Assembly (NCBI GenBank): GCA_017962605.1
Contig: JAGCUY010000070.1
Coordinates: forward strand, 2,095-66,094
Source: Kiritimatiellia bacterium
GTDB taxonomy: Bacteria > Verrucomicrobiota > Kiritimatiellia > RFP12 > JAAYLN01
Reading direction: 5' to 3'
DNA length: 64,000 nucleotides
Part shown: piece after piece, positions 5,293-57,731 of the stretch
How the letters are laid out: each line of letters begins with the position of its first letter
How positions within the stretch are numbered: the first letter of the stretch is position 1
Made by a program: the position numbers and the translations under genes
Notes under the pieces: model-generated
Databases searched by the model: none
What the model was told of the DNA's origin: nothing
What the model saw: the letters and a program-made list of their open reading frames with translations, nothing else

Positions 5293-5360
5293 CCAAGGCG
5301 TTCGCGCAGAATATGATATACTAACAGAAACTTGGATGGAAACCATCCTGTTCTGGTGCA

Positions 5361-12446: not shown

Positions 12447-15400
12447 TTATTCTACTGTTGCCATCTCGCCTTTGTTCTCGCGGAGAATGGATAGGTTGCG
12501 CTTCGCCATCGCATTTCCTTTTTCAGCAGAACGATTGAGCATTTCAAGCACTGTGGCCTCATGGTATTCCCCGGGATTTGCTATCTCCGCATAGAGAAGA
12601 ACCGCCAGGTTGTTGAGCGCTTCCGCATCGTCGGCCATCGCGTTCAAGACAGTGTTGCCAATCGCCCGTGACGGCAACTCGCTGAAGAAAAACATCTGCG
12701 CGATGCCATCGCTCCCAGCGGTTTTGCGCAAGAAGAAATACTTTCGCGGCCCGAAGTCGTCGCTATGCCGCGCCAGTATCACAAAGCGGATGTCCTGCGA
12801 AATCTGCCACATGGCGATTGCTCGCTCGACCCCTTCAGGCAAATCCCCATATTGGATGGGCTTATCTTCGGAAATAACAGTCTCGTCCCAGTAGTCATAT
12901 CCGAGAACGGGGGAAAGCAATTCTTTTATTTCCTTTTCCCCGCAGCGTTGATACGCCCCGTCGAGTTTGTCGTATGCGTATTCCTCAGCCAAACAGTTCT
13001 GCGTCCAGTATGTATCCCTGACGCAAATGTAGCACTCCTCCTTATCGCCGCCTTTGTCAGCGGGAATGTGAAGCCTATAGACGCCATCGGCCAGTTCCGC
13101 CAGCAAGGCGCCGCTTTCTGCCTCATAGTCATCCATGTCAAGTTCCCAAAGGTCATTCGCCGCCGGTTTCCATGGACAGAAAACCATCCGTTTCAGCGTC
13201 TCCGGAGGAACAAGCCCCTTTTGCCTCAAAGCCACATGGGAATCCTCACGAAGCAGTTCGTTGACGTATTTACGCCAGTCGAGTGTGTCGTGGCGATAAC
13301 CCACATGGCGGTAGTAGCCGAGCATCATCTGGTCAATGAGCGGCAGCGCAAACCCGCTTTCCATGGAGAAATCTGCTCTGAGACAGAGTTCCGGCCTGTA
13401 GCGGAAGGGACGTGGGGGCTTTATAGATGGCTCGCCAACGAGGTCTGCGTCGCTTTTGTATTCGTATTTCCATGCAAGCGTTGACCGAGAGGGGTCTTCC
13501 TCAGTGAGGTCATATTGATGGCCATAGTAGCCAATCTTGGCATTGGCGAGGCCGTTTGTCAGATCTTCAGCGTCTAGCTCTTGCGTCCAAAACGCCTCCA
13601 TGCTTTGGTGGCCCTCAAGAGGTCTTCCAAGCTCATCGCGCGAGTCAATGATGAACCCCTCTCGCGTGAACTCGTTGGTTGATGCGTTGCCGTTGGACGC
13701 AGGTGTCACGCGCGTCCAGCCGATAAGTTCGCCGTCGTTGCCGTAGTGGAACGAATCAATCCACGTTCCCTTGGCGCATCGCCAAGGGCAAAACCCGCCA
13801 ATCTGCCGCTTCGTAAAGTCGCTGACAGCAAGCCGCCCCTGGGCGTCATATTCGCGCGTCTCGTTCGGATTGAAATAAACGCTGGCAATCGCCGGGACCG
13901 AGGCGCGGCCATTGCAGACGAAGAAGCATCCGATATCGACGCGGGAAGACTTGATGGTCGCGCCGCCCGGAAGCGGCGCGTCGAAAGCCCCGTGCCAGTC
14001 TATTTCGATGCGGGCATGTGCGGAGTCTTCTCCCTGCGTTGTTATTCGCACCTTGTCTGCATCCCCTTGCAGCACTTTCCACACGAACTCGCCGCCCGTG
14101 TTGTTTTCATTGAACAGGCCGTCGGGTTCGGGCAGCCTTTGGGCCTCCACCTCCATTATGGCCGTTTTCGCCGCCCAGAAAGCCTGGATTGCGAAATGAT
14201 GGGCGGAACGTGCGACATATTTGCCGGAATCGTCGCCGAAGTCGATGTTCGCCGCAGGAGACGTGTCAAACGGAAGCGACACCTTGATGAACGGCATGTA
14301 GGGCGGTAGCGCGTTCGTCATCGCGCGGGCGTCCGCCAAGGCCCTCCCGACGTCGATGTCCGCGAAGGACAGGACAGGGCGCTGGGCGACCCCATCCATG
14401 AACGCCGCCTCGTTCGTGACGCACCGCTGGGCGTGGCGGATGATGTTCAGCGCGGCAAGCGATGCCCGGTTCGCGAAGTTCGTCGGGAGCGCCACTACGA
14501 TGTCCCTGAAAAGGCCGGCGAACTTCGACGCATCGTCTGCGCCGCTGCTGACGCCGACGCAGACTGGCAGGTTCGCCATGAAGCGGTCGATGCCGTCCGC
14601 GCCATAGTCCGAACCTGCGGCGTAGAATCCGAGCATGTTCCGAAGGCCGTGTCGCCACACCTCGCGGCATGCCCCGCCCCTGTCGAGGGCGATGATGGCC
14701 GCCGTGCCCATCGGCCTGTTCAGGCGGTTGTCTTCACCCGGGCAGTCGCCTGTCGCCACGGTCGGGATGTGCTCCTCCCTGCGTGTGTCCCTGAACCTGA
14801 ATATCGTCTTGCGCTTGTCGTGGCCAGCCTTGCGGAGCGAGTCGGAAAACGAGACGGCCGTCATTCCCAGAGGCGGCTGGACGCGACTTCCCCAGTCGTA
14901 GTTGAGAAGGAGGACGGGCCGCGCGTCTTCGTCGGTATCGACAGAAACAAGATACTCGCCGCCGATGGGGCTTGTAGCCTCGCCGAACTCGTAATACACG
15001 TTGTCGTCGTCAAGTGCAAGCACGCCATCGGCAATCCGGGCGTGCTTGCGCGGCTCGTCCCACTGCTCCTTGATTTCGCCGGCAATGCTGACGAGTCTGT
15101 CGAACCGCGCGTCGCCGCGAATCCCGGCGAGGTCTTCGTCCTCCATCATGTAGTCCGCCTCGTTGTACCCGGCGGCGATGGCCTGTTCCAGGGCTTCGAT
15201 GGCCTCGTCGGCCCGCCCCTGGCGGGCGAGGGCGCAGGCAAGGTTGTAGAACCAGCGCGGCGGGGCGATTCTGAGACGAATTCCCTCGCGGGCGACCCTC
15301 TCGAAAACCTCCGCCCGCCCTCCGATGTCCTCGGAACACCAGTCCTGCGCCCTTTCCAATTCAAAGAAGTCCTCCGCATAGTCGGGCATTTCCGACATCG

Positions 15401-16133
15401 GGACGCGGACGTCCGCGCCGCGCCACTTGCGGCGCAGCGCGGCAAGCGCCTCGGACGCATCTTCGATTGCGTAAACATCGACATTGGCGGCCTCGATGGC
15501 CTCTGCGAAAAGCGCGTCCACCGCGTCGAGGATTGACTTGAAGTCGGTTGGCGGCGCCTCGCAGGGAAGGACGTTGGCGCTCTCGGCAAGCCGGGAGTAG
15601 CGTATCTTCACGAAACGGCCGCGCCATGCGGTGATGAAGGTCAGGGACAAGCACTTCGCCGGGGCGTCGTTCGCGTCAAATGTGAGCGATGTCCAGAGGA
15701 AAGGGAGCTTCGACCTTTCAAGCACTCCCTCCTCGCTTCTGCCAAGCCATTTGAAATTGTGCCTTATTTGCTCGATTTCATGGCATGCCTTTGCAAGTTC
15801 GCGCCTGACCTCGCCCCCTACGCCATCAGGCAGGATTGGATCGTCGCGCATGAAGATAAAGAGGCTCAATAGACGCCCATTACCGCCCAGGGTCGGGTCT
15901 TCACCAGAACTGTAAACGAGTGCGTAGTCGTCATCGCCAGATTCGGTGAAAGTTCTTCTATCCAGCATCGTCAGGCCGTCTATTTTCTCCGGGAATTCGA
16001 CGCGGAGAACAGGCTCCACCCAGGTGCTGCATTGCTGGATTGAGTTCGCCTCGTATTTCTGGGCCGCGCAAGCGTCTGACATTGCCATGCTTGCCGCGCA
16101 AATCAATGCTGCCGCTATTGTTTTTGTGTTCAT
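12447..16133 (-). CDS. large secreted hypothetical protein (1228 aa) with C-terminal Sel1-like repeats
   Basis: N-terminal signal peptide (MNTKTIAAALICAASMAMSDACAAQ). C-terminal AEALNNLAVLLYAEIANPGEYHEATVLEMLNRSAEKGNAMAKRNL resembles Sel1/TPR repeats. Confidence 0.5.
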   Translation of the reverse strand: MNTKTIAAALICAASMAMSDACAAQKYEANSIQQCSTWVEPVLRVEFPEKIDGLTMLDRRTFTESGDDDYALVYSSGEDPTLGGNGRLLSLFIFMRDDPILPDGVGGEVRRELAKACHEIEQIRHNFKWLGRSEEGVLERSKLPFLWTSLTFDANDAPAKCLSLTFITAWRGRFVKIRYSRLAESANVLPCEAPPTDFKSILDAVDALFAEAIEAANVDVYAIEDASEALAALRRKWRGADVRVPMSEMPDYAEDFFELERAQDWCSEDIGGRAEVFERVAREGIRLRIAPPRWFYNLACALARQGRADEAIEALEQAIAAGYNEADYMMEDEDLAGIRGDARFDRLVSIAGEIKEQWDEPRKHARIADGVLALDDDNVYYEFGEATSPIGGEYLVSVDTDEDARPVLLLNYDWGSRVQPPLGMTAVSFSDSLRKAGHDKRKTIFRFRDTRREEHIPTVATGDCPGEDNRLNRPMGTAAIIALDRGGACREVWRHGLRNMLGFYAAGSDYGADGIDRFMANLPVCVGVSSGADDASKFAGLFRDIVVALPTNFANRASLAALNIIRHAQRCVTNEAAFMDGVAQRPVLSFADIDVGRALADARAMTNALPPYMPFIKVSLPFDTSPAANIDFGDDSGKYVARSAHHFAIQAFWAAKTAIMEVEAQRLPEPDGLFNENNTGGEFVWKVLQGDADKVRITTQGEDSAHARIEIDWHGAFDAPLPGGATIKSSRVDIGCFFVCNGRASVPAIASVYFNPNETREYDAQGRLAVSDFTKRQIGGFCPWRCAKGTWIDSFHYGNDGELIGWTRVTPASNGNASTNEFTREGFIIDSRDELGRPLEGHQSMEAFWTQELDAEDLTNGLANAKIGYYGHQYDLTEEDPSRSTLAWKYEYKSDADLVGEPSIKPPRPFRYRPELCLRADFSMESGFALPLIDQMMLGYYRHVGYRHDTLDWRKYVNELLREDSHVALRQKGLVPPETLKRMVFCPWKPAANDLWELDMDDYEAESGALLAELADGVYRLHIPADKGGDKEECYICVRDTYWTQNCLAEEYAYDKLDGAYQRCGEKEIKELLSPVLGYDYWDETVISEDKPIQYGDLPEGVERAIAMWQISQDIRFVILARHSDDFGPRKYFFLRKTAGSDGIAQMFFFSELPSRAIGNTVLNAMADDAEALNNLAVLLYAEIANPGEYHEATVLEMLNRSAEKGNAMAKRNLSILRENKGEMATVE

Positions 16134-16161: not shown

Positions 16162-18228
16162 TCAAAGCAGAATACTCTGTTTTAAAGCATTCCAGTCCTT
16201 TTCGTTCAGCGTATTCACACCAGAATTTGTCACTCGGCCCTTTGCATCAAAGTATAGATCGAGTTCACCTCCTCCGATTGGTGACTGAAAACTCAACCTT
16301 ATATGGTAATCAGAGAATGCTTTTGCAGAAACGAGTTGGAGAGGCTTGCCCTTCAGAGATTGCAAGATGCGAGCGACTATTGTTTCGTGTTGCGGACGGA
16401 CACTAATTTCTGGCTCGGCAACATCTGATTGTTCGGCTTCCTCCCCAAAGACTTCTCCTGTCTTTTTACCAACCAAAGAAGACAAGCGCCTTCGTGCTGC
16501 ATCATCAAGGCCATCGACATGGTTTTCAATGTGGGTAATCATGGCATTCTTGCGGTATATGACATCAACATATCCCGTTTTGTCTTTGCCTTGAACATGT
16601 ATCCGATACCGAGAGGAAAGCTCTTCGATTTGTCCCAATGTCAATCCAATAGATCGAATAACTTCATCGATTGCCGATGACGTCCTTTGAACACAAGTAT
16701 CCACTTCTACAGCCTTATCATAAGACTTATTAGACGCGAAAACATTAGACAAAGCGTCAATATGCGGAGAATTGGCAACGAATAAGTGTTCCTTGGCGCG
16801 TGTTGTAACAGTGTATGCCCAGCGGAAGAAATAACTACTCATGAGATTTAATCCACAATTGTAGTCCGCCCATACATAATTCCATTCACCACCCTGTGAC
16901 TTGTGGCCTGTAACGGCATAGCCGAATTTTACAATTGGTGCGCGAAGCCAAGGCAACTCTGCCATTTTTTCTTTAACCAATTTGTCCCAAAACAGCTTTT
17001 TGCTTCGGTCTTTTCGGAAATCGGGATATTTCTTTCGCAAAATTTCTTCTGCAAAATGTTTTACCCCATTGTAGAGTCCCATTTGGGCAAAACAATCATG
17101 TTCATCCCATTCGGAAAGAATTATGGGTGTAACATTTATCCAGATGTTATCGACCTGACCACGTTCGGGTTCATAAGTCCAACGCAGAGACATCCTCTTA
17201 AACGTGTATGTGAAGGTGAAAGTCTTTTCACTTTCTTTTGGGCGATAATACCCTTGCAAAGAAAAAGTTTCCCCGAAAGTGTTCACAACAGTGAGAAAGT
17301 CGCCATTGAAGAACTGCACCTTCTCTCCAGATGGAAGAAGAATGCGTGTGTTTCTGATGGATAGAAGCCTTTCTCCGTATTCCGGCAATTTGCCAAAATG
17401 CCCCAAAAAACCTCGAATTACAGCATTGTATTCTTGTACTTTGGCATTAGTATGGGCAATGGCAATCTTTTCGTCTATTGAATCCTTCCAATCGGGAACG
17501 ACAGACAATGTCTCTTCAGAGACCATTGAGACATCCTCGTGCGAGGTAAATGAGAAACGATTGAAGTCTTTTGCTTCAAGCGCTGAGCGCAACCTTGTCG
17601 CCTCAGCAAGGATGCCACTCCCTTTGCTTTGACGGAATACCTCGGTAAGTTCTATTACAGTCGGTTTAAATGAGGTTAATTCCTCTATCTTTTCCGCATC
17701 CAGGGCAGGAGGAGTCTCGCATTGCTCCATGACAGGAGGAAGCTGGAAAGAGTCTCCGACGAAAAAAAGAATGTTTGACGTATTTTGAGTCTTAATTCCA
17801 GAATACTGAATCAAATCCCCCAAAAGAGAACCACTGCCGAATTGAAACAACTCACGATCATTATCATGCTTGGAAAGACCGACCATCGAGGCTTCGTCTA
17901 TGATAAAAGCCGTGTTTTCAACATCCTTGTCATCCTTTAGTGGGAAAATCCATTTCAGCGCATCGTCTTGCTCGTCCCGGATTGGTTCATTCACAATGTT
18001 GAAGATTCCTGAATGGATAGTTGAAGTATCAAATCCTGTTCTCTTGTGTAGAACCATCGCAGCCCGACCCGTAGGAGCCATCAGCATCGGGAAGAGTCCG
18101 CGTTCTTGAAGAACTGGCACAAGCGAACGGATAAGGGTTGTTTTACCAGTACCAGCGGCACCCCGGATGATGAAACAGCGGGTACCAGCATCAAGCGCAT
18201 GCAAAATAGTGTCAAGAGGATTTCTCAT
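16162..18228 (-). CDS. SF1B RecD/Pif1-like DNA helicase (AAA_30 + UvrD_C_2-type) with about 200-aa C-terminal extension
   Basis: Motifs I GAAGTGKTT, Ia MAPTGRAA, II IIDEASMV, III VGDSFQLPPV, IV VFRQS, V YAVTGHKSQGGEWNYVW, VI YTVTTRAKEHL. Start codon lies 2 nt after the RT stop. Low-GC gene. Confidence 0.75.
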   Translation of the reverse strand: MRNPLDTILHALDAGTRCFIIRGAAGTGKTTLIRSLVPVLQERGLFPMLMAPTGRAAMVLHKRTGFDTSTIHSGIFNIVNEPIRDEQDDALKWIFPLKDDKDVENTAFIIDEASMVGLSKHDNDRELFQFGSGSLLGDLIQYSGIKTQNTSNILFFVGDSFQLPPVMEQCETPPALDAEKIEELTSFKPTVIELTEVFRQSKGSGILAEATRLRSALEAKDFNRFSFTSHEDVSMVSEETLSVVPDWKDSIDEKIAIAHTNAKVQEYNAVIRGFLGHFGKLPEYGERLLSIRNTRILLPSGEKVQFFNGDFLTVVNTFGETFSLQGYYRPKESEKTFTFTYTFKRMSLRWTYEPERGQVDNIWINVTPIILSEWDEHDCFAQMGLYNGVKHFAEEILRKKYPDFRKDRSKKLFWDKLVKEKMAELPWLRAPIVKFGYAVTGHKSQGGEWNYVWADYNCGLNLMSSYFFRWAYTVTTRAKEHLFVANSPHIDALSNVFASNKSYDKAVEVDTCVQRTSSAIDEVIRSIGLTLGQIEELSSRYRIHVQGKDKTGYVDVIYRKNAMITHIENHVDGLDDAARRRLSSLVGKKTGEVFGEEAEQSDVAEPEISVRPQHETIVARILQSLKGKPLQLVSAKAFSDYHIRLSFQSPIGGGELDLYFDAKGRVTNSGVNTLNEKDWNALKQSILL

Positions 18229-18230
18229 GG

Positions 18231-20069
18231 CTATAGGTCTCCATAAATGCCGAAATTGCTACCAGATTTTTCTTTGCAATAGTAGTCTTGAATCTCTACC
18301 CTTGTTAATCCCTTGAAAGAGCCATAGTAGCTAAATGGCGCTCCATAGTACCCTCGTTTAATTGTCAAGGTCGTGCTGTCGTTTACGGAAAGGTCTTTGT
18401 TGCCATTATCGCAGTCTATCGCCGGAGTTGCGGGATGCTGTTTCCGCCACTCTCTCTTCATGGCCTTTTTCGCCAGTTTCAGAACAGAGTTGCGTGTTCT
18501 ATCGAGGTTTTTAAGTTGAGACACTACTGAAGGACAAGACGAAATGTGGGGCAGAAATACCGCCAGCCAACTTCTGGCAAATCTTGCATTAGCCGGACGA
18601 TCAATCCTTCCCACGCCAATGGCTGTTAGACGCAATTGGAAAACCTTGAAGAGGTCATACCAGGTAAATCCATTCCTAAACTGGGATTGCGCGTCTTTGA
18701 GCATACGAGTAAGTCGCGTCTTTTCCATGTACATTTTATCCTGATGCTTTTTTATAGTTTCCTTTTTTATGCGGACTGCTCCATCATATCGTATCTGATG
18801 GCCCAGAAAACTAATCCATGGCGTACCAGGGCGTCCTAATCCAGTCTCCTTCCAGGCAATGGGGCCTTTTGATTTTTCGGTGAAGTACGCCGATGAATAC
18901 CTCGCACTTTTAGCTATGGGGTGTGTCGGTAGTTTTAATCGTTTCACAGCATCCAAATACCTGTCAAGAGCCTCCTTGCACTTCTTTTTTTCGGGATGTA
19001 CGATAATTATGTCATCGCAAAATCTTGCATAAAACAAGTTCTCATCTGCATCAGCCATAACAGCGCGGTCGGCTTCATCCATGACGATGTTAGCCAAAAG
19101 TGGTGAAAGCGCACCGCCTTGCGGAATCCCTATTTCATGTGGATTCACATCTTCGTCCCCATAAACTGATTGCAGGACACTAATCGGCACACGATCTACA
19201 CACTCGCGCTTAGCAATGATTTCCGGGTCTTCGTATTCGTCAAGATTGCGTGGAAATGCGTAAACATTCAAATATGCTTCAAGCACTTTCCGAGCGCGGT
19301 TGTCAACACCTTGCGGGGCACGGGCGGAAAAAATGTCGAAAGCTCGCCTAATTATATCGTGGTTGATTACGTCAAAGAACTTTTGAATATCGCAATCTGC
19401 CACATAGAGAGTTTGGTTCGTAAAGCGTTTTCTATATTCGATAAGATTGTTTATGGCCGTATGGATGGAATACTTTTTCCCGTTGCGGCGAAAAGCATAG
19501 CAACAGTTCAGCAAATGTGAATCAAAAACATTCCGAAGATATGCGGCAGTTTTTGAAAGAATTACCCGATCTTTTGAATCGGTAAAACACGACAGGCATC
19601 GGTATGAAGATTTCTTGTTCTCTTCGTCCATCGTTTTTACACGTCCTGTATTCTTCCGAATCAACATCAACTCAGGCCTTCTAAATGCGAATTCGCCGAT
19701 GGTTATAGTTTTTTGTATGTCCATGGCAAATGCAACCAGATTTCTGCCCCATTGGGAGTCTTTGAGCTTTCCGGCTTTCAGCATTCCAGAAATAACGCGA
19801 ATGATTGACAATGTGGCAACATCATTTTGCGATAAACCTTTTCGGGCTTCTTTGCCGCCCCGTCGCCACAGACGGCGCGGCGGAAGCATCTTAGTAATGG
19901 ATTCTTCACTTATCTTACTCTTGGGTTCAAGTTCCTTTCCGGCGTCATCGTGCAAAACCAGCCGGTCCCAATACATATGGTATCTATGGCGTGAAGAGGC
20001 AATACGAGTCCGCAAGGCGCACAGCACCTTTACGATGTCATCAAAACTGAAATACTGCTCAAAATCCAT
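18231..20069 (-). CDS. reverse transcriptase (612 aa) with long N- and C-terminal extensions; not intron/retron/DGR-like in context
   Basis: RT motifs 1-2 (CCYAFRRNGKK ... YVADCDIQKFFDVINHD), 4 (IGIPQGGALSPLLANIVMDEAD), 5 (YARFCDDIIIV = YxDD box), 7 (ISFLGHQIRYDG). About 190 aa precede motif 1 and about 200 aa follow the thumb. Low-GC. Confidence 0.8.
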   Translation of the reverse strand: MDFEQYFSFDDIVKVLCALRTRIASSRHRYHMYWDRLVLHDDAGKELEPKSKISEESITKMLPPRRLWRRGGKEARKGLSQNDVATLSIIRVISGMLKAGKLKDSQWGRNLVAFAMDIQKTITIGEFAFRRPELMLIRKNTGRVKTMDEENKKSSYRCLSCFTDSKDRVILSKTAAYLRNVFDSHLLNCCYAFRRNGKKYSIHTAINNLIEYRKRFTNQTLYVADCDIQKFFDVINHDIIRRAFDIFSARAPQGVDNRARKVLEAYLNVYAFPRNLDEYEDPEIIAKRECVDRVPISVLQSVYGDEDVNPHEIGIPQGGALSPLLANIVMDEADRAVMADADENLFYARFCDDIIIVHPEKKKCKEALDRYLDAVKRLKLPTHPIAKSARYSSAYFTEKSKGPIAWKETGLGRPGTPWISFLGHQIRYDGAVRIKKETIKKHQDKMYMEKTRLTRMLKDAQSQFRNGFTWYDLFKVFQLRLTAIGVGRIDRPANARFARSWLAVFLPHISSCPSVVSQLKNLDRTRNSVLKLAKKAMKREWRKQHPATPAIDCDNGNKDLSVNDSTTLTIKRGYYGAPFSYYGSFKGLTRVEIQDYYCKEKSGSNFGIYGDL

Positions 20070-20222
20070 AGGAGAAAAAAAGGAGGCGGCGTCGCGGAAT
20101 TCTACCTAGTTGGCCGCTTTGCGCCCTTTAGGGCGCAGGAATTTGACGCGGGGAACCAATTGGCCTGCAAGCCCCGCCAGAATCACGGTCGTTAGCCGTG
20201 CGCGACGCGCGCCTCCATAAAA
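20070..20222 (-). ncRNA. candidate structured non-coding RNA / regulatory leader immediately upstream of the RT gene
   Basis: 153-nt spacer that is GC-rich inside an AT-rich island. Contains a perfect hairpin TGCGCCC-TTTA-GGGCGCA (about 20119-20136) and further GC palindromes (GCGCGACGCGCGC). No ORF. Confidence 0.25.
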
Positions 20223-22925
20223 TCATTTCACAACCTCCAATGTGACAGCCTTCCACCCAACGCGATCCTTGAGCTTGTCGTAGGATTTCACCGCTACGCC
20301 TCCGATTTCCGTGCCATTTGTTAAGTCCTGAATAAGGCTTTGTGGCACGAAAATATCTTTTGAGTCGCCTGTTCTGTTGCGAACGAAACCATAGTTACGG
20401 CCTTCGGGCCTGTTGAATGTCCCGGAATAAAACATGCCGAAAGAAGGGAACCCTTCGTACTTGACATTTATTATTTCAAGAATATATGATTTGCCGCTTT
20501 TTGCGCTTCTTTCAAGAGCCAATTCGCATACCGTTCCGCTAGGCATGTTAGCCAGACATGGAAGCTTTGCCCAGTCACCTGTGCATGTTTCGCCATTGTT
20601 GCCGATTGTAAACTCTGAACGCCCACGACGTTTGTCTTGATAAGATAGAATGGCAATCTGCTTGGGGTAAATGTCCCATGGGACTCCCTCCTCTCTTTTC
20701 TCAACCTTGAGGACTCGTAGCCGTTCGCCAACCACTTCCGTCCAGATTTTCACGGGCATTCCTGGCGTAGCCATGCCAAGTACGGGAAATCGTCTTGTTT
20801 CAACGCGAACTTCGGTTGAATTTCCAAAATCTGCAAAAATCTTGGCAATTTTCTCATTGCGTTCCTTGTCAACATAGCATGTCATGAGAACGGCATTAAT
20901 GAAAGGCTGGCCGGCAAACGCGATTTCATCTGCCTTGGCCGCAAACTCATGGTACACGTCTTCATTACTATTTGTTGGAGTTGGATCGGTGGTAAACCGC
21001 ATCTTCTCGCCATCTGGAATTGCCTTTATTGTAACCAACTGTTTTTTTAGCAATTCGTCTTTTTTTTGCCGGAGTTGGTAGAGACTCCATTTTTTTGCGG
21101 TTCGGATCTCTTTTACAATCCTCAATTCACATAGAGCCTCAGGTATTTTTCCCATTTCAATGAAGGCGTCAGCAAGCATTTCATGGACGCCTACAAGATA
21201 CGAACTGTCTTTTGCCGGACAAAGCGCTGCGCGGCAAAGGCAGGCAAAGAATTTCTCCCTGTCATCGTGAAATGTTTCGGCAAGAAGTTGCCAAGTCCAA
21301 AACTGAGCCGATTTTTTGCGAGTTATTTTCGCTATATACTCTCTGGCCTTGACGGATTCGCCGCTTTCAACAAGCAGTTTTCCATAATAGAATGGAAACC
21401 ATTCCTGCGAAGGGTATCTTTCCATGGCCATCCTGATGAAATCCAATATCCATTTGTGGCCTACCACGAACGCAAGGTTTTCACTACGGCCTTTTTGTTT
21501 TGCACACTTATAAAGCAATCCTACTACAGTTTCAACAAGAGAAGGAAATGATTTGTTCGGATTGTCTTTCGGGATGAACGGCGCGTAATCTTCTTCGGCG
21601 AAATTGGAGACATCCCAATTTTTGACAAAATGGAGGAATTGAATGGCCAATTGTTCTTGGATATTCTCACCCGCAGCCTTTACTATCTTTGCATAGATTC
21701 GCAGATATTGCGAATAGGCAACCGAAGGCTTCGGAACGGCCGAGCAGCAATTCACCAAATTGAAACCTTCGACGACGCAATTTGTGACGGCATCTTCCTG
21801 CCCGTTCTTTTCTCGTCCCTCTGGGAAAACGTCATTGAGAATTTTCTTCAATGACGCAGGAGTCAAATCTGCCGCATTTGGATTCCAGCCTTTCTTCAAG
21901 GCTTCGTCTATTGTTCGATAAAGCGCCCAGATTGCACTGGTCTGGGCTTTCTCGCTTTCTGGGTTTAGCGGAATGGCGGCACAGTATTCCCTGAAGGCAC
22001 GGGGATAATCACCAAGCTTGTCACAGACAGAAGCCAATGCCATGTGTGCAAGGAAACTTGTTGGCTGTTCACTAATAAGCGATTCTGCCTTTGACAATGC
22101 TTCTGCCAGCGACTCCGGGTTTGCTGCCAATGCTTTTATTTCACCAGTCCCACTCAAAAACTGGTCAGCTTTTTTTAAGTCTATTGGTCTTGTCGCTTTG
22201 ACTTTGCTTTCTCCTGCGGCTTCCTCATTAAGAGAGAGGTTACGCATTTCGTTGGCAAAGAACTCGACTAGCTTTCGATTCTTAAGGTTTTCCATCGATT
22301 GTTTTAGGCAATCATGGAGCGTCCAAAACATATCTAGTTGGCATGAGGTATCATCACATTTATCAAGCAGTTTTGCCCTGCATTCCTCGAATTGTGCCGA
22401 AAGGTGTTCCTCGCTTGAAAGAGCCTCTGAGGCATAATGTTGAATCAGCTTTTTCAAAATCATGTCATATTCACTATCTCCAAGAGAAAGCCCTTGAAGG
22501 ATAGAGACGAATCTTTCTCGCGTTTTCTGAAGAGTTTCTTTTTGTGTTTTTCCAAGAACATGTAGAGACTTAAGGGCGGCGATTGCGTTGCATCCAGCCC
22601 AGCCAACTGCGCTCGCATTTTTAGCGGTGTCGAGATTGTAGAGGTCGCAGGCCATCAGGAACGCTATAATGCGACATGATTGCAATTCAATATTGTCAGA
22701 GCCACAAGTAGTAATTGCAGCTTTTGCCTCCCGTCTTATGGCCGTGCAAACCTTGAATGCATCCTGACGGTTCGCTGCTGCATATGTTATCCATGACTTT
22801 TGCACTTCATCAGCATAGATCCCATTCAAGGCTGCAATGACATCTACGTCTTTGCGCGTCGCAAGGCCGGAAGCTAGCAACTGCTGCAAATCATCTAGTT
22901 TCCATGTTGTCGTGAAGGTTGCCAT
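20223..22925 (-). CDS. 900-aa alpha-helical (TPR-like) protein with C-terminal cold-shock-domain-like OB fold
   Basis: Mostly helical, repeat-like N-terminal 650 aa. C-terminus NYGFVRNRTGDSKDIFVPQSLIQDLTNGTEIGGVAVKSYDKLKDRVGWKAV parallels the CspA RNP1/RNP2 motifs (KGFGFI ... DVFVHFSAI). No nucleotide-binding motifs. Low-GC. Confidence 0.45.
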   Translation of the reverse strand: MATFTTTWKLDDLQQLLASGLATRKDVDVIAALNGIYADEVQKSWITYAAANRQDAFKVCTAIRREAKAAITTCGSDNIELQSCRIIAFLMACDLYNLDTAKNASAVGWAGCNAIAALKSLHVLGKTQKETLQKTRERFVSILQGLSLGDSEYDMILKKLIQHYASEALSSEEHLSAQFEECRAKLLDKCDDTSCQLDMFWTLHDCLKQSMENLKNRKLVEFFANEMRNLSLNEEAAGESKVKATRPIDLKKADQFLSGTGEIKALAANPESLAEALSKAESLISEQPTSFLAHMALASVCDKLGDYPRAFREYCAAIPLNPESEKAQTSAIWALYRTIDEALKKGWNPNAADLTPASLKKILNDVFPEGREKNGQEDAVTNCVVEGFNLVNCCSAVPKPSVAYSQYLRIYAKIVKAAGENIQEQLAIQFLHFVKNWDVSNFAEEDYAPFIPKDNPNKSFPSLVETVVGLLYKCAKQKGRSENLAFVVGHKWILDFIRMAMERYPSQEWFPFYYGKLLVESGESVKAREYIAKITRKKSAQFWTWQLLAETFHDDREKFFACLCRAALCPAKDSSYLVGVHEMLADAFIEMGKIPEALCELRIVKEIRTAKKWSLYQLRQKKDELLKKQLVTIKAIPDGEKMRFTTDPTPTNSNEDVYHEFAAKADEIAFAGQPFINAVLMTCYVDKERNEKIAKIFADFGNSTEVRVETRRFPVLGMATPGMPVKIWTEVVGERLRVLKVEKREEGVPWDIYPKQIAILSYQDKRRGRSEFTIGNNGETCTGDWAKLPCLANMPSGTVCELALERSAKSGKSYILEIINVKYEGFPSFGMFYSGTFNRPEGRNYGFVRNRTGDSKDIFVPQSLIQDLTNGTEIGGVAVKSYDKLKDRVGWKAVTLEVVK

Positions 22926-22961: not shown

Positions 22962-24170
22962 CTAACCCTCAAAAACTAATCGTATCTTCGGACTTGGGCG
23001 TATACATTTTTCATACGGACGTGGGATGTCAATATCGCTCCCCTCAAAAAAACGTTTCACGTGGTCAACTATCTGACAACGTCTAAACTTCGCATCATCT
23101 CGTTCCAATGAACCATCACCTATGTCCCCGCTATAAGGGTGAAAGGTATTTAAATGGCCATTTTCATCACAGATATCAAGGCCTTCGGGAATCCTCATTG
23201 AGTAAATGCCGCCAACAATTGCACGGTTGTGAAACGTATGCGTCCTCCTAGAGTTATAATCCTTTTTGAGTAGCAAAACACGTATCAACAAACCCATTGC
23301 ATTGTTGTGCCTTATTTTATTGGTTCTTCCCATTTCTTCAATCAGATTAATCACTTCTAAGGCTGAAAACTTTTCATATTCCACAGGGTATTTCGAGATT
23401 ATCGTCAGTTCCGTAATATCAGAATTTGACATAAATGGTTGCAACAACGCTTTTGAGGAATGCTTCCATCGGTTTTGATTGTCAATGTGTTCGGAAGTAT
23501 TATCATCATTAGGTTTCGCAATTGCGCTCCAGTACCGGTCGGCAAGCACTACTTGTCCTTCTGCTGCGGCACAAAAAGCATTCATATAGTCATAAAAAGA
23601 GTTTTTGGAACTATCATCATATGTTTGTTCTCCTATCCATTTTTTACGCAATATTTCTGTATCACTTTCTTCATAGTTATCTATTGATTCACAGACGAAA
23701 GATTGTCGTAAGTTGTTTATTGATAACCCTTCACTAAACTTGTCGGTTATTATAACGAAGCCCTTGATTTCTCGTGGGGTGGCAATACGCCGAGTATGTT
23801 TGGTCCATGCTTGGATACATTCTTTCAAATAGTCATTATCATCGCCCGTGGACTCGTTAATCGCTACTATATGTTTTCGATCTTCATAAAGGCTATCATA
23901 ATTTTTGAGAACGTTGCAAAGATTGCCAAAAAAGCCGCCTTCTTCTAGTTCGGCATATTCCTCCGCATATTGTTCTGCAATGGTCGTAATTAAAGCAAGA
24001 GGTTTGCGCGCTTTACTAAACTCGTCAAGAATGAGAATACCATTGGCTTCAATAGCATTGCGAAGATTGACAAGTCTGCTTTGAAGTTGTACGGCATACA
24101 CTATGTTATTCGCCGCCTTATCGATGCAACGGCGAATATGCATCCAATCTATGAGATACTGAACAATCAC
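22962..24170 (-). CDS. hypothetical 402-aa protein, partner of the adjacent ABC-type ATPase
   Basis: GTGA start/stop overlap with the upstream ATPase gene. Very AT-rich. No confident domain. C-terminal C-x-x-N-G-H...H...C...D-H region is a possible but unconvincing nuclease-like motif. Confidence 0.4.
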   Translation of the reverse strand: MIVQYLIDWMHIRRCIDKAANNIVYAVQLQSRLVNLRNAIEANGILILDEFSKARKPLALITTIAEQYAEEYAELEEGGFFGNLCNVLKNYDSLYEDRKHIVAINESTGDDNDYLKECIQAWTKHTRRIATPREIKGFVIITDKFSEGLSINNLRQSFVCESIDNYEESDTEILRKKWIGEQTYDDSSKNSFYDYMNAFCAAAEGQVVLADRYWSAIAKPNDDNTSEHIDNQNRWKHSSKALLQPFMSNSDITELTIISKYPVEYEKFSALEVINLIEEMGRTNKIRHNNAMGLLIRVLLLKKDYNSRRTHTFHNRAIVGGIYSMRIPEGLDICDENGHLNTFHPYSGDIGDGSLERDDAKFRRCQIVDHVKRFFEGSDIDIPRPYEKCIRPSPKIRLVFEG

Positions 24171-25228
24171 CTCACGCCCTCAATTCCGAAGAATTCATCG
24201 ACAACTCTTGTTCGAGCAGTAAAGAATCCACCCGGCCATCTCGTTCGATAGTTTCCATAGGAGTCGGTCTTTATCTCATCCACTATACTACCCTCTTCGG
24301 TTTTTGTAACATATAGCACGGAAAGGTCATCTGGCGTAATCGTTCCCATCCTAAGGAAGTTTTTTAGTTTCAAAGCCATTAGTTCGCTATGGCTCTCAAC
24401 AATAAGCTGTCTGTCTCGATTCTCATTAGCGGTCTTGAAAATGAAATTCATGAGACTGGATATTTGCCGCTCGTTGACATGGGATTCCGGCTCTTCAAGT
24501 GCAAAAAGATGTTTTTGCCCCGCCCTCCATTTGCAAAGGCTCAGTCCTGTCTCATACAATCCGTCTATCCCTGCTCCTGTATTGTCTCGCACGACAGTTA
24601 TACCAAAAGTTTTGTCTTTAAGTCTGCTAAAGTCAAGGGCCTCATAAGGGACATTTAGTTCCGAAAAAAACTCATTAACAAATTTGATTGCATCCGTCCC
24701 AAGAAGGAGTGCTTCGTCCAGACTCGTTTTTTTCGTTTCGTCGATTCTGGTCCGAATTGGACGAGCGGCTTCTTGGTGAATCATTTCTGGAACGCCATTG
24801 ACATACGGATCTTTCAAACTCTGATGAATACGTTTCCTCTCTTCAACATCGGTCGGCCTTTCATAAAAGCTATGGACAGCCCCTGAATATGGAGTTTCAT
24901 AGCCGATGTACTTTAGAGAATGTCCGTTTTCACTTTCTCGCCCTTCTTGCCTTGCAGAATACTCATATTTTGGGGAGTGTCCCAAAGAATCTGCGGATGT
25001 TGTTATCCTCAATTTGATTTCCAGATTTGTGTCGCCTGAAAAAACATACTCTTTAAAATTAGCACGAATGGCGGCTACTTCGTCGTTGCATATCATGCGC
25101 AACAATTGAAGGAAAGTGCTTTTCCCGGCGCTATTGTCACCAAAGATAAAGTTGATTCGCCGCAGAGAAAAATCTACTCCTGGGTCACCATAGCACTTGA
25201 AGTTTTTCAGTTGAATTCGCCTAATCAT
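24167..25228 (-). CDS. ABC-type (AAA_15/AAA_21, SMC-head-like) ATPase, defence-associated type
   Basis: MIRRIQLKNFKCYG N-terminus typical of the family. Walker A GDNSAGKST. Walker B/D-loop LFALEEPESHV ... LIVESHS. Likely start at 25228 (MIRR) rather than the track start at 25318. Confidence 0.65.
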   Translation of the reverse strand: MIRRIQLKNFKCYGDPGVDFSLRRINFIFGDNSAGKSTFLQLLRMICNDEVAAIRANFKEYVFSGDTNLEIKLRITTSADSLGHSPKYEYSARQEGRESENGHSLKYIGYETPYSGAVHSFYERPTDVEERKRIHQSLKDPYVNGVPEMIHQEAARPIRTRIDETKKTSLDEALLLGTDAIKFVNEFFSELNVPYEALDFSRLKDKTFGITVVRDNTGAGIDGLYETGLSLCKWRAGQKHLFALEEPESHVNERQISSLMNFIFKTANENRDRQLIVESHSELMALKLKNFLRMGTITPDDLSVLYVTKTEEGSIVDEIKTDSYGNYRTRWPGGFFTARTRVVDEFFGIEGVR

Positions 25229-25262
25229 GAGCAAACCTCTCCTCCAAAAACAAACGATAAGA

Positions 25263-26417
25263 TTATACCAAAAAATGGCTTTCTTTGATAAGGTCTGGAC
25301 ATCCGCAGACATCCGCAACTATTTCCCTGTTCCTCCACTTGATTCGTTGCAGGGGGAATGTGACAGGGGCGTTGCGCTTGGGGACAAGTGTTTCCACGGC
25401 TGTGAAGCCGGCGGCGGCAAGGCTTTTGCGGAGGTTCGACATGGTCTTGGTCAGGTCTTCCGCGAACTTCTCGTTGGAGAAGAGCGAACCCTCCTGGAAA
25501 GTGGCTATCCAGTCGCATTTGCCGGATGCATGGTTTTCCGTGCCATGCAGGGCGAGTAGTCGCCTATGGAGGTCACGGATAGGGCACCCGCCAGCAATCA
25601 AAAGGAGCGTCGCAAAGCATGGGCGGCTCATGGGGACTGTCGCCCCGTCGAGTGTCACCCAGCCATTCCATGCGTCGATTTCAATCTCAGGATAAACAAC
25701 GGCTGGCGGTGCGACTTCCTGAACCCGCGAAACAAGTGTTCCGTAATTTGGCGGCAGCGACTTGAACTTCTCCTGATACCACCCACGCATGCGCACATAC
25801 GGCACCTCGAACAGCTCGCTTTTCAGCGAAGCACCCGCATGACTCTTTCCCGTAAGCAGGGACTTGTAGCGCGTTCCCTTTTTGGGGAAGAAGAAGGGCG
25901 GCTCACTTCCACCCTCCAATGCTGGCGGCAGCAACACATGGTAAACCTTGTCGCAATCGCGGCCGAGAAGCGTCATGCAGGAAAACATGAGGGCGCTCAT
26001 TGTCTTTCGTCCGCCTGCAATCGATACGTGGAGTTCCGTCCCGCAATCCTCTGTGAATTGGCGTAGTTGCGAGAGCATGAAGTTTGCTGCGCGGAGATTG
26101 TCGTCGCCCGTCCTGAGATCGTCGATTTCGTTGCCATGCGCATCAGGGATGGCGCGAATGGATGCGCTCCCGAAAACGAGACGCCCTTCGACATCAAGCC
26201 CGCTCCGCTTCATGCAAGCCAACATGTCGTTCCAAACGCCCCCTTCGAGAAGCGCTTCGCAAAGACATCTCTTCCCGCTCTTCGTCGTGATGGCGACGAC
26301 CTCGTCAGGCACAACCGGAACATCACAATGGGCCAGCGCCCATGCGGTCTCCGTGAGAATCGACGGCGTCGTGCCAACAACGGCCACCAAAACTGCCTTC
26401 TTGTCCTTTTCCATCAC
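25263..26417 (-). CDS. CARF-domain protein (CRISPR-associated NE0113-like Rossmann sensor) with uncharacterised C-terminal domain
   Basis: Strand-1 motif VLVAVVGTTPSILTETAWAL and strand-4 motif LHVSIAGGRKTMSA match the two CARF signatures. 384 aa. GC-rich, host-like composition. Directly upstream of the AT-rich island on the same strand. Confidence 0.45.
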   Translation of the reverse strand: MMEKDKKAVLVAVVGTTPSILTETAWALAHCDVPVVPDEVVAITTKSGKRCLCEALLEGGVWNDMLACMKRSGLDVEGRLVFGSASIRAIPDAHGNEIDDLRTGDDNLRAANFMLSQLRQFTEDCGTELHVSIAGGRKTMSALMFSCMTLLGRDCDKVYHVLLPPALEGGSEPPFFFPKKGTRYKSLLTGKSHAGASLKSELFEVPYVRMRGWYQEKFKSLPPNYGTLVSRVQEVAPPAVVYPEIEIDAWNGWVTLDGATVPMSRPCFATLLLIAGGCPIRDLHRRLLALHGTENHASGKCDWIATFQEGSLFSNEKFAEDLTKTMSNLRKSLAAAGFTAVETLVPKRNAPVTFPLQRIKWRNREIVADVCGCPDLIKESHFLV

Positions 26418-57705: not shown

Positions 57706-57731
57706 ATTATTACCAACAGGCTTGCAAGACC

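What the first reader, a model, noticed from the sequence alone, without database searches (positions are those of the whole stretch)
20070..20222. GC-rich 153-nt spacer with a perfect hairpin directly upstream of the RT: a candidate template/guide ncRNA
The spacer is GC-rich (about 60%) and palindrome-rich inside an otherwise roughly 40% GC island. It contains a perfect TGCGCCC-TTTA-GGGCGCA hairpin plus GCGCGACGCGCGC.

In retrons and DRT2/DRT9-type systems, the RT's RNA template lies immediately upstream of the RT gene on the same strand. This is exactly that position. It could also simply be an intra-operon terminator/attenuator.
Basis: partly seen in the sequence, partly recalled or inferred. 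Interest (0 to 1): 0.55.

Follow-up and report, generated by a model that had tools for sequence, protein, structure and literature searches.

The report
Conserved structured RNA preceding a defence RT
The GC-rich spacer encodes a roughly 140-nt, four-helix RNA that is conserved with compensatory base changes directly upstream of this family of bacterial defence reverse transcriptases (UG39), so it is most likely the enzyme's previously undescribed partner RNA rather than a plain terminator.

Summary
The spacer at 20070-20222 is 59.5% GC in a 42-48% GC operon and contains the stated hairpin and GC-rich run.

On the minus (RT-sense) strand it folds into one domain. P1 is followed by U7 and then the RT start codon.

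A covariance model built from five loci finds the same element in 63 loci in total. It is always on the RT strand and lies a median of 17 nt before the RT start, at RT identities down to about 30%, whatever the neighbouring genes are. In the 35-sequence alignment, 31 of 35 pairs show compensatory changes.

The RT is UG39 (PADLOC E 3e-131). Its predicted fold is closest to DRT9 RT structures. No Rfam family matches, and the model does not hit DRT9 ncRNAs. I found no paper describing a UG39 ncRNA.

Best reading (about 0.6): it is the RT's cognate scaffold/template ncRNA, as in DRT2, DRT9 and DRT10. P1 plus the U-run would also act as a terminator or attenuator. Here the RT-RNA module sits inside a TOTE/PDC-M16 operon.

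The template and the cDNA product remain unknown. Tests for a DRT2-like endless ORF and for DRT10-like A-B-A repeats were negative.

The parts
20075..20216 (-). Structured ncRNA: four-way junction P1-P2-P3-P4 plus 3' U-run, about 142 nt
   Evidence: Covariance model R1 hit at 20073-20222, 127.5 bits. MFE fold z = -3.3. Helix coordinates.
20201..20216 (-). P1 5' strand, GGAGGCGCGCGUCGCG.
   Evidence: Pairs with 20082-20096. 15 of the 16 P1 pairs show compensatory changes in the 35-sequence alignment.
20184..20200 (-). P2 hairpin, CACGG-CUAACGA-CCGUG
   Evidence: All 4 modelled pairs covary and 100% of cells are paired.
20178..20183 (-). J2/3, conserved single-stranded segment (family consensus UUYGAGC running into P3)
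   Evidence: It is part of the most conserved unpaired sequence in the 35-sequence alignment.
20148..20177 (-). P3, a two-part hairpin: GCGGGG...CCCCGC enclosing GGCC-AAUU-GGUU
   Evidence: 7 of 10 pairs covary. The invariant G-U pair (24 sequences) fits only the RT-sense strand.
20138..20147 (-). J3/4 linker, GUCAAAUUCC
   Evidence: Unpaired in the consensus structure.
20120..20137 (-).
   Evidence: The hairpin is kept in about half to two-thirds of the aligned sequences (10-18 of 35 rows are gapped at its pairs). Its sequence varies and all 5 modelled pairs show compensatory changes.
20097..20119 (-). J4/1, a 23-nt A-rich unpaired strand ending in the conserved UUC/AUC + C. Candidate template by analogy with DRT9.
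   Evidence: Length is about 18-27 nt and the sequence varies across loci. The predicted DRT9 ncRNA fold has its U-rich template loop at the same relative position (PMC12483538). The template assignment is inference only.
20082..20096 (-). P1 3' strand, CGCGACGCCGCCUCC
20075..20081 (-). U7 run directly after P1, 5 nt before the RT start codon. Terminator-like tail.
   Evidence: A U/pyrimidine-rich tail follows P1 in most loci.
18231..20069 (-). Reverse transcriptase, 612 aa, UG39 group (Class 2 UG/Abi)
   Evidence: PADLOC RT_UG39 E 3.2e-131 over the whole model, against Drt2 1e-25 and Drt9 5e-22. Pfam RVT_1. AF2 pLDDT 87.5 and Foldseek top six hits are DRT9 RT structures. Invariant FYARxCDD and C-terminal GxPFSY.
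20223..22925 (-). Upstream gene, 900 aa: TPR + DUF7017 + S1/CSD-TOTE-2 (PDC-M16B, the TOTE 'TPR-OB' protein)
   Evidence: The same gene family precedes the RNA in L001-L004, L008, L042, L081-L083, L085-L091 and others.
16162..18228 (-). Downstream gene, 688 aa: SF1 helicase (AAA_30/AAA_19/UvrD_C_2) with a weak C-terminal TBP-TOTE match (PDC-M16A)
   Evidence: PADLOC PDC-M16A E 9e-116. Pfam TBP-TOTE E 0.008. The same order is seen in L081 and L094.
22962..25318 (-). Two further operon genes: a 402-aa protein with no family match and a 383-aa AAA_15/AAA_21 ATPase
   Evidence: The ATPase - variable gene - M16B - RNA - RT order recurs in L002, L004, L008 and L042.
12447..16133 (-). 1228-aa TPR protein downstream of the helicase; possibly part of the system
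   Evidence: Homologues lie next to UG39 RTs in L016, L067 and L092. Its GC content is much higher than that of the rest of the operon.

Best explanation
The spacer encodes, on the RT-sense (minus) strand, a roughly 142-nt structured non-coding RNA that is the cognate partner of the UG39 reverse transcriptase encoded 5 nt downstream.

Shown by the data: it is a four-way junction. A 15-16-bp closing stem P1 encloses hairpins P2, P3 and P4, with conserved unpaired strands J2/3 and J4/1.

Inferred from the RT's best-studied relatives (DRT9, DRT2, DRT10):
- The RT binds this RNA as a scaffold.
- The RT copies a short internal stretch of it repeatedly into DNA. The most likely stretch is the unpaired J4/1 strand just 5' of the P1 3' strand.
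- Synthesis is probably primed from a hydroxyl residue in the RT's conserved C-terminal tail (GxPFSY, Y581).
- The DNA product, or the RT-DNA adduct, would then be the signal or substrate for the other operon proteins: the TPR-S1/CSD OB-fold protein, the SF1 helicase with a TBP-like tail, and the ATPase. These form a TOTE/PDC-M16 conflict system.

P1 followed by U7 probably also acts as an intrinsic terminator or attenuator. This would set the RNA's 3' end and keep RT expression low relative to the RNA. Because P1 starts 6 nt after the upstream stop codon, ribosomes finishing the upstream gene would transiently open it.
For: (1) The fold is real. The MFE z-score is -3.3.
- A MAFFT-only alignment of 9 loci gives the same structure. 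14 of 33 pairs change on both sides, and 97.9% of cells are paired against 40-61% when partners are slid.
- In the 35-sequence model alignment, 31 of 35 pairs are compensatory, 95.7% of cells are paired against 40-53% slid, and 0 of 500 shuffles reach any of the five measures.

(2) The strand is the RT strand. Abundant G-U pairs, such as one G-U kept in 24 sequences, are tolerated only on that strand.

(3) The element goes with the RT.
- It is found in 63 loci, always on the same strand, a median of 17 nt from the RT start.
- RT identity runs from 82% down to about 30%.
- Neighbours vary: M16B-like, DprA-like, helicase-HEPN, Schlafen/AlbA and ADP-ribosylglycohydrolase genes.

(4) Purifying selection. 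The spacer is 83-87% identical to L080/L081, while RT third codon positions are 66-69% identical.

(5) Canonical Bacteroidota UG39 loci (VirE/PriCT-2 neighbour) have a longer leader with the same logic. A TAnnTTTG promoter box lies 6-10 nt before a conserved closing stem, followed by a U-run and ATG.

(6) The RT is a Class 2 UG/Abi enzyme. RT_UG39 scores E 3e-131. The six best structural matches are DRT9 RT-ncRNA complexes aligned over about 565 columns.
- UG39 was split from UG28/DRT9 (PMC9226505).
- DRT2, DRT9 and DRT10 all use an adjacent ncRNA as scaffold and template (PMC12483538; PMC12489045; 10.1101/2025.10.16.682844).
- DRT9 primes from conserved C-terminal tyrosines (PMC12483538). This RT has an invariant C-terminal PFSY.

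(7) Variant copies of the RNA occur without an RT directly behind them: L082:5003-5158 and L096:592-749. This fits an RNA gene better than a pure RT leader.
Against: - There are no expression, binding or cDNA data.
- The RNA is not detectably homologous to the DRT9 ncRNA and has no internal U-tract.
- No template could be pinned down. The P1-enclosed loop is not a multiple of 3 and has stops in all frames. J4/1 has no excess of A-B-A direct repeats (3.59 against 3.37 nt in shuffles).
- No pseudoknot signal was found.
- P1 plus the U-run immediately before the start codon is exactly what a cis-acting terminator or attenuator would look like, and a complex leader can be purely regulatory.
- In this window there is no room for a promoter between the upstream stop codon and P1. 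The RNA must therefore come from the operon transcript or from a promoter inside the upstream gene.
- The model-fitted alignment leans towards the structure, and the model's E-values are rough.
Confidence: 0.62

Rival explanations
1. The element is purely a cis-acting leader. The structured domain is a transcription terminator/attenuator or translational regulator of the RT gene, possibly bound by the RT or another operon protein for feedback. It has no templating or scaffold role.
For: - The 15-16-bp GC-rich P1 is followed at once by U7 and then the start codon.
- A U/pyrimidine-rich tail after the closing stem is widespread. 54 of 81 long closing stems have at least 5 T in the next 10 nt.
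- P1 starts 6 nt after the upstream stop codon, so upstream translation could control its formation.
- The element is nearly always directly in front of the RT.
Against: - A terminator needs only one hairpin. Here three further helices and conserved unpaired strands are maintained by covariation across phyla.
- The P1 'loop' is 104 nt and multi-branched, which is atypical for an intrinsic terminator. The consensus terminator scan did not call it.
- Copies occur in front of non-RT genes or of nothing: L096:592-749 and L082:5003-5158.
- Every characterised relative of this RT uses its upstream RNA as scaffold and template (PMC12483538; 10.1101/2025.10.16.682844).
- The two roles are not exclusive.
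Confidence: 0.25
2. The RNA is a ligand or decoy for the TOTE proteins rather than for the RT. The candidates are the S1/CSD OB-fold of the upstream M16B protein and the TBP-like tail of the helicase. It would hold the system inactive until infection.
For: - The gene ending 6 nt upstream encodes a C-terminal S1/CSD nucleic-acid-binding domain.
- M16B-like genes precede the RNA in about 20 loci.
Against: - Most RNA-positive loci have no M16B-like or M16A-like gene at all. All have the RT.
- PDC-M16 is represented in PADLOC by A and B protein models. That it is a two-protein system without an RNA is my recollection, not something these results show.
Confidence: 0.07
3. It belongs to another known retroelement RNA: a retron msr-msd, a DGR template repeat, or a group II intron domain.
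For: - It has a closing inverted repeat reminiscent of retron a1/a2.
- It sits upstream of an RT.
- The database name of the identical protein is 'group II intron reverse transcriptase domain-containing protein'.
Against: - The RT is UG39, not a retron, DGR or intron RT.
- No Rfam family (group II intron, retron or any other) matches, even at E <= 1.
- There is no second, VR-like copy of the spacer anywhere in the 64-kb window.
Confidence: 0.02
4. It is chance GC-rich palindromes in a non-functional spacer.
For: None beyond the a priori possibility.
Against: Covariation and conservation across 63 loci, plus positional constancy.
Confidence: 0.01

Closest known systems
DRT9 (UG28) RT-ncRNA system
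   Same: - It is the closest RT. UG39 was split from UG28 (PMC9226505), and the six best PDB fold matches are DRT9 RT structures.
- The ncRNA lies directly upstream on the same strand.
- The predicted DRT9 ncRNA also has a long-range closing helix around several hairpins. An unpaired loop, which is its template, lies just 5' of the closing helix's 3' strand, and there is a U-run at the 3' end.
- Conserved C-terminal Tyr-containing tail (PMC12483538).
   Different: - The covariance model of this RNA does not hit DRT9 ncRNAs.
- There is no internal conserved U-tract, which is the DRT9 template.
- There is no 5' SL1 and no separate terminator hairpin. Here the closing stem itself precedes the U-run.
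- The RT is about 110 aa longer.
- DRT9 is a stand-alone RT+ncRNA system, whereas this one sits inside a multi-gene operon.
DRT10 (UG17) RT-ncRNA-SLATT system (telomerase-like tandem repeats)
   Same: - Class 2 UG RT with an adjacent structured ncRNA and a partner effector gene.
- Its template loop varies in sequence between homologues (10.1101/2025.10.16.682844), as J4/1 does here.
   Different: - No enrichment of the A-B-A repeat signature in J4/1.
- Different RT group: RT_UG17 scores E 2e-21 against UG39 at 3e-131.
- No SLATT gene.
DRT2 (UG2) RT-ncRNA (rolling-circle 'neo' gene synthesis)
   Same: - Upstream ncRNA on the same strand.
- A looped region closed by a helix could in principle support rolling-circle copying.
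   Different: The P1-enclosed loop (86-188 nt; 104 nt in the window) is not a multiple of 3. In the window, and in most loci, it has stop codons in every frame on both strands. A DRT2-type endless ORF is therefore not supported.
TOTE / PDC-M16 conflict systems (TPR-OB protein, TBP domain, effector)
   Same: - The flanking genes match PDC-M16B (TPR+DUF7017+S1CSD-TOTE-2) and PDC-M16A (SF1 helicase, weak TBP-TOTE).
- TOTE is defined as in PMC12458937, citing Aravind et al. 2022.
   Different: An RT gene and its structured RNA are inserted between the two genes. Neither the PADLOC models matched nor the one TOTE description I could read (PMC12458937) mentions an RT or an RNA component.
Rho-independent terminators / leader attenuators
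   Same: A GC-rich helix is followed directly by a U-run, upstream of a start codon.
   Different: The helix closes a 104-nt multi-helix domain that is itself conserved by covariation. Extra copies occur away from RT genes.

Membership tests
Class 2 UG/Abi RT-associated ncRNA systems (DRT2/DRT9/DRT10 type) | The RT belongs to Class 2 UG/Abi | tested here: met
   PADLOC RT_UG39 E 3.2e-131 over the full model. The next-best DRT group models are Drt2, Drt9 and UG17. Foldseek top hits are DRT9 RT structures. That UG39 falls in Class 2 rests on its split from UG28 (PMC9226505) and my reading of that paper.
Class 2 UG/Abi RT-associated ncRNA systems (DRT2/DRT9/DRT10 type) | A sizeable non-coding region adjacent to the RT on the same strand, conserved across homologues | tested here: met
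   63 loci have the element on the RT strand, a median of 17 nt before the RT start.
Class 2 UG/Abi RT-associated ncRNA systems (DRT2/DRT9/DRT10 type) | Conserved secondary structure supported by covariation | tested here: met
   31 of 35 pairs are compensatory. 14 of 33 are compensatory in a structure-blind MAFFT alignment.
Class 2 UG/Abi RT-associated ncRNA systems (DRT2/DRT9/DRT10 type) | The ncRNA is expressed, binds the RT and is reverse-transcribed; the system defends against phage | not testable with these tools
   This needs RNA-seq, RIP-seq, cDNA sequencing and plaque assays.
DRT9 (UG28) ncRNA family | Sequence/structure homology to the DRT9 ncRNA | tested here: not met
   With filters off, model R1 gives no hit upstream of the RT in two DRT9 loci, L160 and L161.
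DRT9 (UG28) ncRNA family | Universally conserved internal poly-U template loop | tested here: not met
   No conserved U-run lies inside P1. The only U-run is the 3' tail after P1.
DRT2 ncRNA (neo gene) | Looped template whose concatemer gives a stop-free ORF | tested here: not met
   Loop lengths mod 3 are spread 12/10/13. The window has stops in every frame on both strands, as do most loci; a few (e.g. L006, L010, L088) have a stop-free frame. This assumes the whole P1-enclosed loop is the template.
DRT10 ncRNA (telomerase-like) | A-B-A repeat flanking the template in the template loop | tested here: inconclusive
   The longest direct repeat in J4/1 averages 3.59 nt against 3.37 nt in shuffles across 27 sequences. 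This shows no enrichment, but a 3-4-nt A element cannot be excluded.
Retron msr-msd | Retron-clade RT | tested here: not met
   The best family is UG39. In the part of the PADLOC table shown, retron-type RT models (RT_I-B, RT_III-A) score only 5.5e-11 and 9.4e-10. Retron RT structures rank far below DRT9.
Diversity-generating retroelement | A template repeat with a near-identical variable repeat in a nearby target gene | tested here: not met
   There is no second copy of the spacer in the 64-kb window by blastn or covariance model.
Any Rfam 15 family | A match at gathering score or at E <= 1 | tested here: not met
   The only overlapping match is a chance-level hit on the opposite strand (Ysr224, 21.7 bits against a gathering score of 70).
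Intrinsic (Rho-independent) terminator | A GC-rich hairpin followed immediately by a U-run | tested here: inconclusive
   The stem (15-16 bp) and U7 are present. The 'loop' is a 104-nt multi-helix domain, and the consensus scan did not call it. Term-seq is needed.
TOTE / PDC-M16 conflict system (operon context) | A TPR + OB (S1/CSD) protein | tested here: met
   Pfam TPR, DUF7017 (3.5e-27) and S1CSD-TOTE-2 (5e-13). PADLOC PDC-M16B E 4.6e-65.
TOTE / PDC-M16 conflict system (operon context) | A TBP-like domain and an effector/helicase partner | tested here: inconclusive
   PADLOC PDC-M16A scores E 9e-116, but the Pfam TBP-TOTE match is weak (E 0.008, below cut-off).

The most novel reading that the evidence does not exclude
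UG39 RTs with this RNA form a new, uncharacterised type of defence-associated RT system with its own ncRNA fold. In this locus the RT-RNA pair has been plugged into a TOTE (TPR-OB / TBP-helicase / ATPase) operon. RNA-templated, protein-primed DNA made by the RT would then be the molecule that the OB-fold, TBP-like and helicase proteins bind, unwind or sense. That would be a link between DNA-synthesis-based immunity and a separate conflict-system family that has not been described.
Probability: 0.3. Interest if true: 0.8.

Novelty: new variant of a known kind. Interest (0 to 1): 0.62.

Why it matters
Every Class 2 UG/Abi reverse transcriptase studied so far (DRT2, DRT9, DRT10, and the UG3 enzyme of DRT3) makes a different and unexpected DNA product from its own small RNA. 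These include a de novo gene, poly-dA and telomere-like repeats.

UG39 is the unstudied sister of DRT9, and no RNA partner has been reported for it. A defined, covariation-supported ~140-nt RNA with exact boundaries and helices gives experimenters what they need:
- a construct to clone;
- helices to mutate and restore;
- a short list of candidate template strands.

It also supplies a covariance model that finds the element in dozens of gut and rumen Kiritimatiellia/Verrucomicrobiota-type loci.

The placement of the RT-RNA pair between the two core genes of a TOTE/PDC-M16 system suggests that some multi-gene defence operons use an RT product as an internal signal. That idea can now be tested directly.

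Tried and rejected
- **Rfam.** An E-value scan of 15-28 kb and a gathering-score scan of the whole window found nothing.
- **tRNA/tmRNA.** None found.
- **DRT9 ncRNA homology.** I fetched two DRT9 loci (L160, L161) through a UG28 protein sequence from the supplement of PMC12483538. Model R1 does not hit their ncRNAs.
- **DRT2-type endless ORF over the P1-enclosed loop.** Length is not a multiple of 3, and stops occur in all frames in the window and in most loci.
- **DRT10-type A-B-A repeats in J4/1.** No enrichment over shuffles.
- **Pseudoknots or tertiary pairs.** A scan of all column pairs found only trivial G-rich/U-rich compatibility.
- **DGR template repeat or dispersed repeat.** No second copy in the window.
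- **Conserved small ORF.** The AUG in UUUUAUGGAGG is absent in L002, L003 and L004.
- **Promoter and terminator consensus scan.** Uninformative and at chance level.
- **Rebuilding a broader covariance model from the 35-sequence alignment.** I used filters-off searches and a crude closing-helix scan instead. That scan is only moderately discriminating: at least 10 bp in 98 of 132 real windows against 60 of 131 decoy windows.
- **Flavobacterial variant.** A MAFFT/RNAalifold run recovered only the closing stem.
- **Literature.** Aravind et al. 2022 (TOTE) and a 2026 'Minerva' preprint could not be read. Searches for UG39, TOTE plus RT, and VirE/PriCT plus DRT found no description of a UG39 ncRNA.
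- **Extra operon proteins.** Pfam scans gave no informative domains.
Full report
**1. The observation**

The spacer at 20070-20222 lies between two minus-strand genes. Upstream is a 900-aa gene (20223-22925) and downstream a 612-aa gene (18231-20069).

- It is 153 nt and 59.5% GC. The surrounding operon is 42-48% GC.
- GCGCGACGCGCGC is at 20200-20212.
- Folded as RNA, the minus strand gives -69.4 kcal/mol against -54.3 +/- 4.5 for dinucleotide shuffles (z = -3.3).

The fold is a single domain. A long closing stem (GGAGGCGCGCGUCGCG / CGCGACGCCGCCUCC) encloses several hairpins. It is followed by U7, then CUCCU, then the ATG of the downstream gene. The GC-rich 'palindrome' is really one strand of that long-range stem.

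**2. The genes around it**

The downstream gene is a reverse transcriptase.
- Pfam RVT_1 matches at 1.6e-19.
- PADLOC RT_UG39 matches at E 3.2e-131 across the whole model. Drt2 (1e-25) and Drt9 (5e-22) are far weaker.

The upstream gene has TPR, DUF7017 and S1CSD-TOTE-2 domains and matches PDC-M16B. The gene after the RT is an SF1 helicase with a weak TBP-TOTE tail and matches PDC-M16A at E 9e-116. Further upstream are a 402-aa protein without matches and an AAA_15/AAA_21 ATPase.

TOTE stands for 'TPR, OB, TBP, Effector' conflict systems (PMC12458937, citing Aravind et al. 2022, which I could not read). The RT and the spacer therefore sit between the two core genes of a TOTE/PDC-M16 system. 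The identical RT protein is on record from a Kiritimatiellae MAG.

**3. Conservation and covariation**

Using an alignment of RT homologues, I fetched 79 genome loci and 80 metagenome loci.

In the closest loci (L001-L004, RT identity 44-50%) the spacer has the same length, and the helices are visibly kept through compensatory changes. RNAalifold on five sequences gave the consensus structure: P1 (16 bp), P2, a two-part P3, and P4.

A covariance model built from those five sequences (R1) found the element widely.
- 15 further genome loci.
- About 30 metagenome loci.
- With speed filters off, nine loci that had been missed.

That makes 63 loci in all. Every hit taken as the element is on the RT strand, and its 3' end lies a median of 17 nt from the RT start.

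On the 35-sequence model alignment:
- 95.7% of cells are standard pairs, against 40-53% when partners are slid.
- 31 of 35 pairs have changes on both sides.
- No shuffle out of 500 reaches any measure.

That alignment is fitted to the structure, so I repeated the count on a structure-blind MAFFT alignment of nine loci. The same fold came out. 14 of 33 pairs were compensatory, and 97.9% of cells were paired against 40-61% slid.

Frequent G-U pairs, one of them kept in 24 sequences, fit only the RT-sense strand. The spacer is 83-87% identical to its nearest relatives, while RT third codon positions are 66-69% identical. It is therefore under purifying selection.

**4. The element goes with the RT, not with a neighbouring gene**

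Clustering all ORFs of the loci and scanning representatives against Pfam shows the RNA-RT pair next to many different genes:
- M16B-like genes (about 20 loci);
- DprA-like genes;
- a helicase-HEPN fusion;
- Schlafen/AlbA-type proteins;
- ADP-ribosylglycohydrolases;
- OLD-type ATPases.

These look like typical defence-island neighbourhoods.

The window's own cassette (ATPase, variable gene, M16B, RNA, RT, helicase) recurs in whole or in part in L081, L001, L002, L004, L008 and L042.

Bacteroidota relatives carry the divergently transcribed VirE-N/PriCT-2 gene that defines UG39 in Mestre et al. (PMC9226505). R1 did not match them at default filters. They were not searched with filters off.
- They have a 200-260-nt leader with the same logic. 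A Bacteroidetes-type TAnnTTTG box lies 6-10 nt before a conserved closing stem (GGCGUAG.../...CUACGCC), followed by a U-run and the ATG.
- The inner P1 motif GU(A/C)G(C/U)G is shared between the two groups.
- A crude scan for a closing helix is only moderately discriminating: at least 10 bp in 98 of 132 real windows against 60 of 131 decoy windows.

I therefore regard 'family-wide' as likely but not proven for the Bacteroidota form.

**5. Relationship to known RT RNAs**

UG39 was carved out of UG28, the DRT9 group (PMC9226505). No ncRNA is reported for it there or in any paper I could search.

An AlphaFold2 model of the RT (pLDDT 87.5) has DRT9 RT-ncRNA complexes as its six best PDB matches, at E 3e-15 to 3e-13 over about 565 aligned columns.

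I retrieved two DRT9 loci. R1 does not hit their ncRNAs, and no Rfam family matches the spacer. This is a distinct RNA family.

Architecturally there is a parallel. The predicted DRT9 ncRNA fold also has a long-range closing helix around several hairpins. Its U-rich template loop lies just 5' of the helix's 3' strand (template identity from PMC12483538 and PMC12489045). The equivalent position here is J4/1 (20097-20119), an A-rich unpaired strand. Its length is roughly constant and its sequence varies, but it ends in a conserved (A/U)UC-C.

DRT9 primes synthesis from conserved C-terminal tyrosines (PMC12483538). This RT family has an invariant C-terminal GxPFSY (S580, Y581) and a nearly invariant Y609.

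**6. Mechanism: what is shown and what is inferred**

Shown:
- A conserved, strand-specific, four-helix RNA structure is physically coupled to UG39 RT genes.
- The RT's closest structural relatives are RNA-templated, protein-primed DRT9 enzymes.

Inferred:
- The RNA binds the RT as scaffold and supplies a short template, with J4/1 the best candidate.
- Synthesis is protein-primed.
- The product feeds into the TOTE proteins (OB fold, TBP-like helicase, ATPase).
- P1 plus U7 probably doubles as a terminator or attenuator, giving an excess of RNA over RT mRNA as reported for DRT2 and DRT9 (PMC9226505).
- Because P1 begins 6 nt after the upstream stop codon, terminating ribosomes would transiently melt it.

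Attempts to identify the product type failed.
- No DRT2-like stop-free circular ORF.
- No excess A-B-A repeats as in DRT10.
- No internal U-tract as in DRT9.
- No pseudoknot signal.

**7. Rivals**

- **Purely cis-regulatory leader or terminator.** This is the main alternative (about 0.25). It explains P1 plus the U-run. It does not explain the extra conserved helices, or the variant copies that lie in front of non-RT genes or nothing (L096:592-749, L082:5003-5158).
- **Ligand for the M16B OB fold.** Unlikely, because most RNA-positive loci lack M16B.
- **Retron, DGR or group II intron RNA.** Rejected.
- **Chance.** Excluded by the comparative data.

**8. Verdict**

The spacer is a new, well-defined structured RNA family attached to UG39 reverse transcriptases. 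Here it is embedded in a TOTE/PDC-M16 operon.

It works like the DRT2/DRT9/DRT10 class in genetic layout and probably in principle. It fails the membership tests for each of those specific RNA families.

- Novelty: new variant of a known kind.
- Interest: 0.62.
- Confidence that the structured RNA is real: about 0.95.
- Confidence that it is the RT's scaffold/template: about 0.6.

Noticed in passing
window 11709-12323: About 25 copies of a 24-nt tandem unit (CGGAAAAGTCGATAGACTACGGTG-like, with 48-, 71- and 98-nt super-periods). They lie just beyond the 3' end of the 1228-aa gene that closes the operon. They are not CRISPR-like, as there are no spacers.
   Followed up: no
window 4375-4442, 28584-28628, 42536-42649, 50810-50898, 52253-52308, 54242-54388, 57552-57706: Many short arrays of 7-8-nt tandem units are scattered through the window: AACTTCCC, AAGTTGAA, GAAGTTGG, TGGAAATG, GGTTGAGA, and ATTTGAG x ~20. 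They may be a genome-wide intergenic feature of this organism.
   Followed up: no
window 25263-27676: A CARF/Csx1-like gene (Cas_NE0113, E 4e-28) and an AAA_14/DUF4143 ATPase (PADLOC PDC-S01, E 4e-145) lie directly upstream of the RT operon. The region is therefore a defence island. Tandem Repeats Finder (the only scan run) showed no CRISPR-like array in the window.
   Followed up: partly
window 12447-16133: The 1228-aa TPR protein after the helicase is 53-68% GC, against 42-48% for the RT operon. Even so, homologues of it lie next to UG39 RTs in L016, L067 and L092. It may belong to the system despite its different composition.
   Followed up: partly
L082:5003-5158; L096:592-749; L118:1504-1656: Second copies of a variant of the RNA occur in the same locus but are not followed by an RT. 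In L096 the copy precedes an ADP-ribosylglycohydrolase gene. In L082 it is followed by a hairpin and an unrelated ORF.
   Followed up: partly
L096:2450-2500; L118:2415-2500; L098:2401-2500; L012:4840-5000: In one clade the 60-150 nt between the RNA's U-run and the RT start are filled with UAG-rich heptamer repeats (UAGUGAAUAGGUAAUAGUGGAUAGUGAAUAG...). Their function is unknown.
   Followed up: no
L006:2685-4493 and 4854-6650: Two UG39-like RT genes lie in tandem in one Kiritimatiellaeota locus. Model R1 hit only the spacer before the second gene.
   Followed up: no
L045, L047, L049, L052, L054, L063, L066, L037, L069 (about 4760-4800 in each): In Bacteroidota UG39 loci a TAnnTTTG box (the Bacteroidetes -7 promoter element) lies 6-10 nt before the closing stem of the leader RNA. 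The transcript would therefore start at the RNA.
   Followed up: partly
window 20201-20216 and 20082-20096: The P1 5' strand is a near-perfect Shine-Dalgarno sequence (GGAGG, GGAGGUG in relatives). The 3' strand plus tail (CACCUCCUUU in relatives) resembles the 3' end of 16S rRNA. The purine-rich SD-like character recurs in most PVC-type loci, though the exact GGAGG motif is not universal. Its significance is unknown.
   Followed up: no
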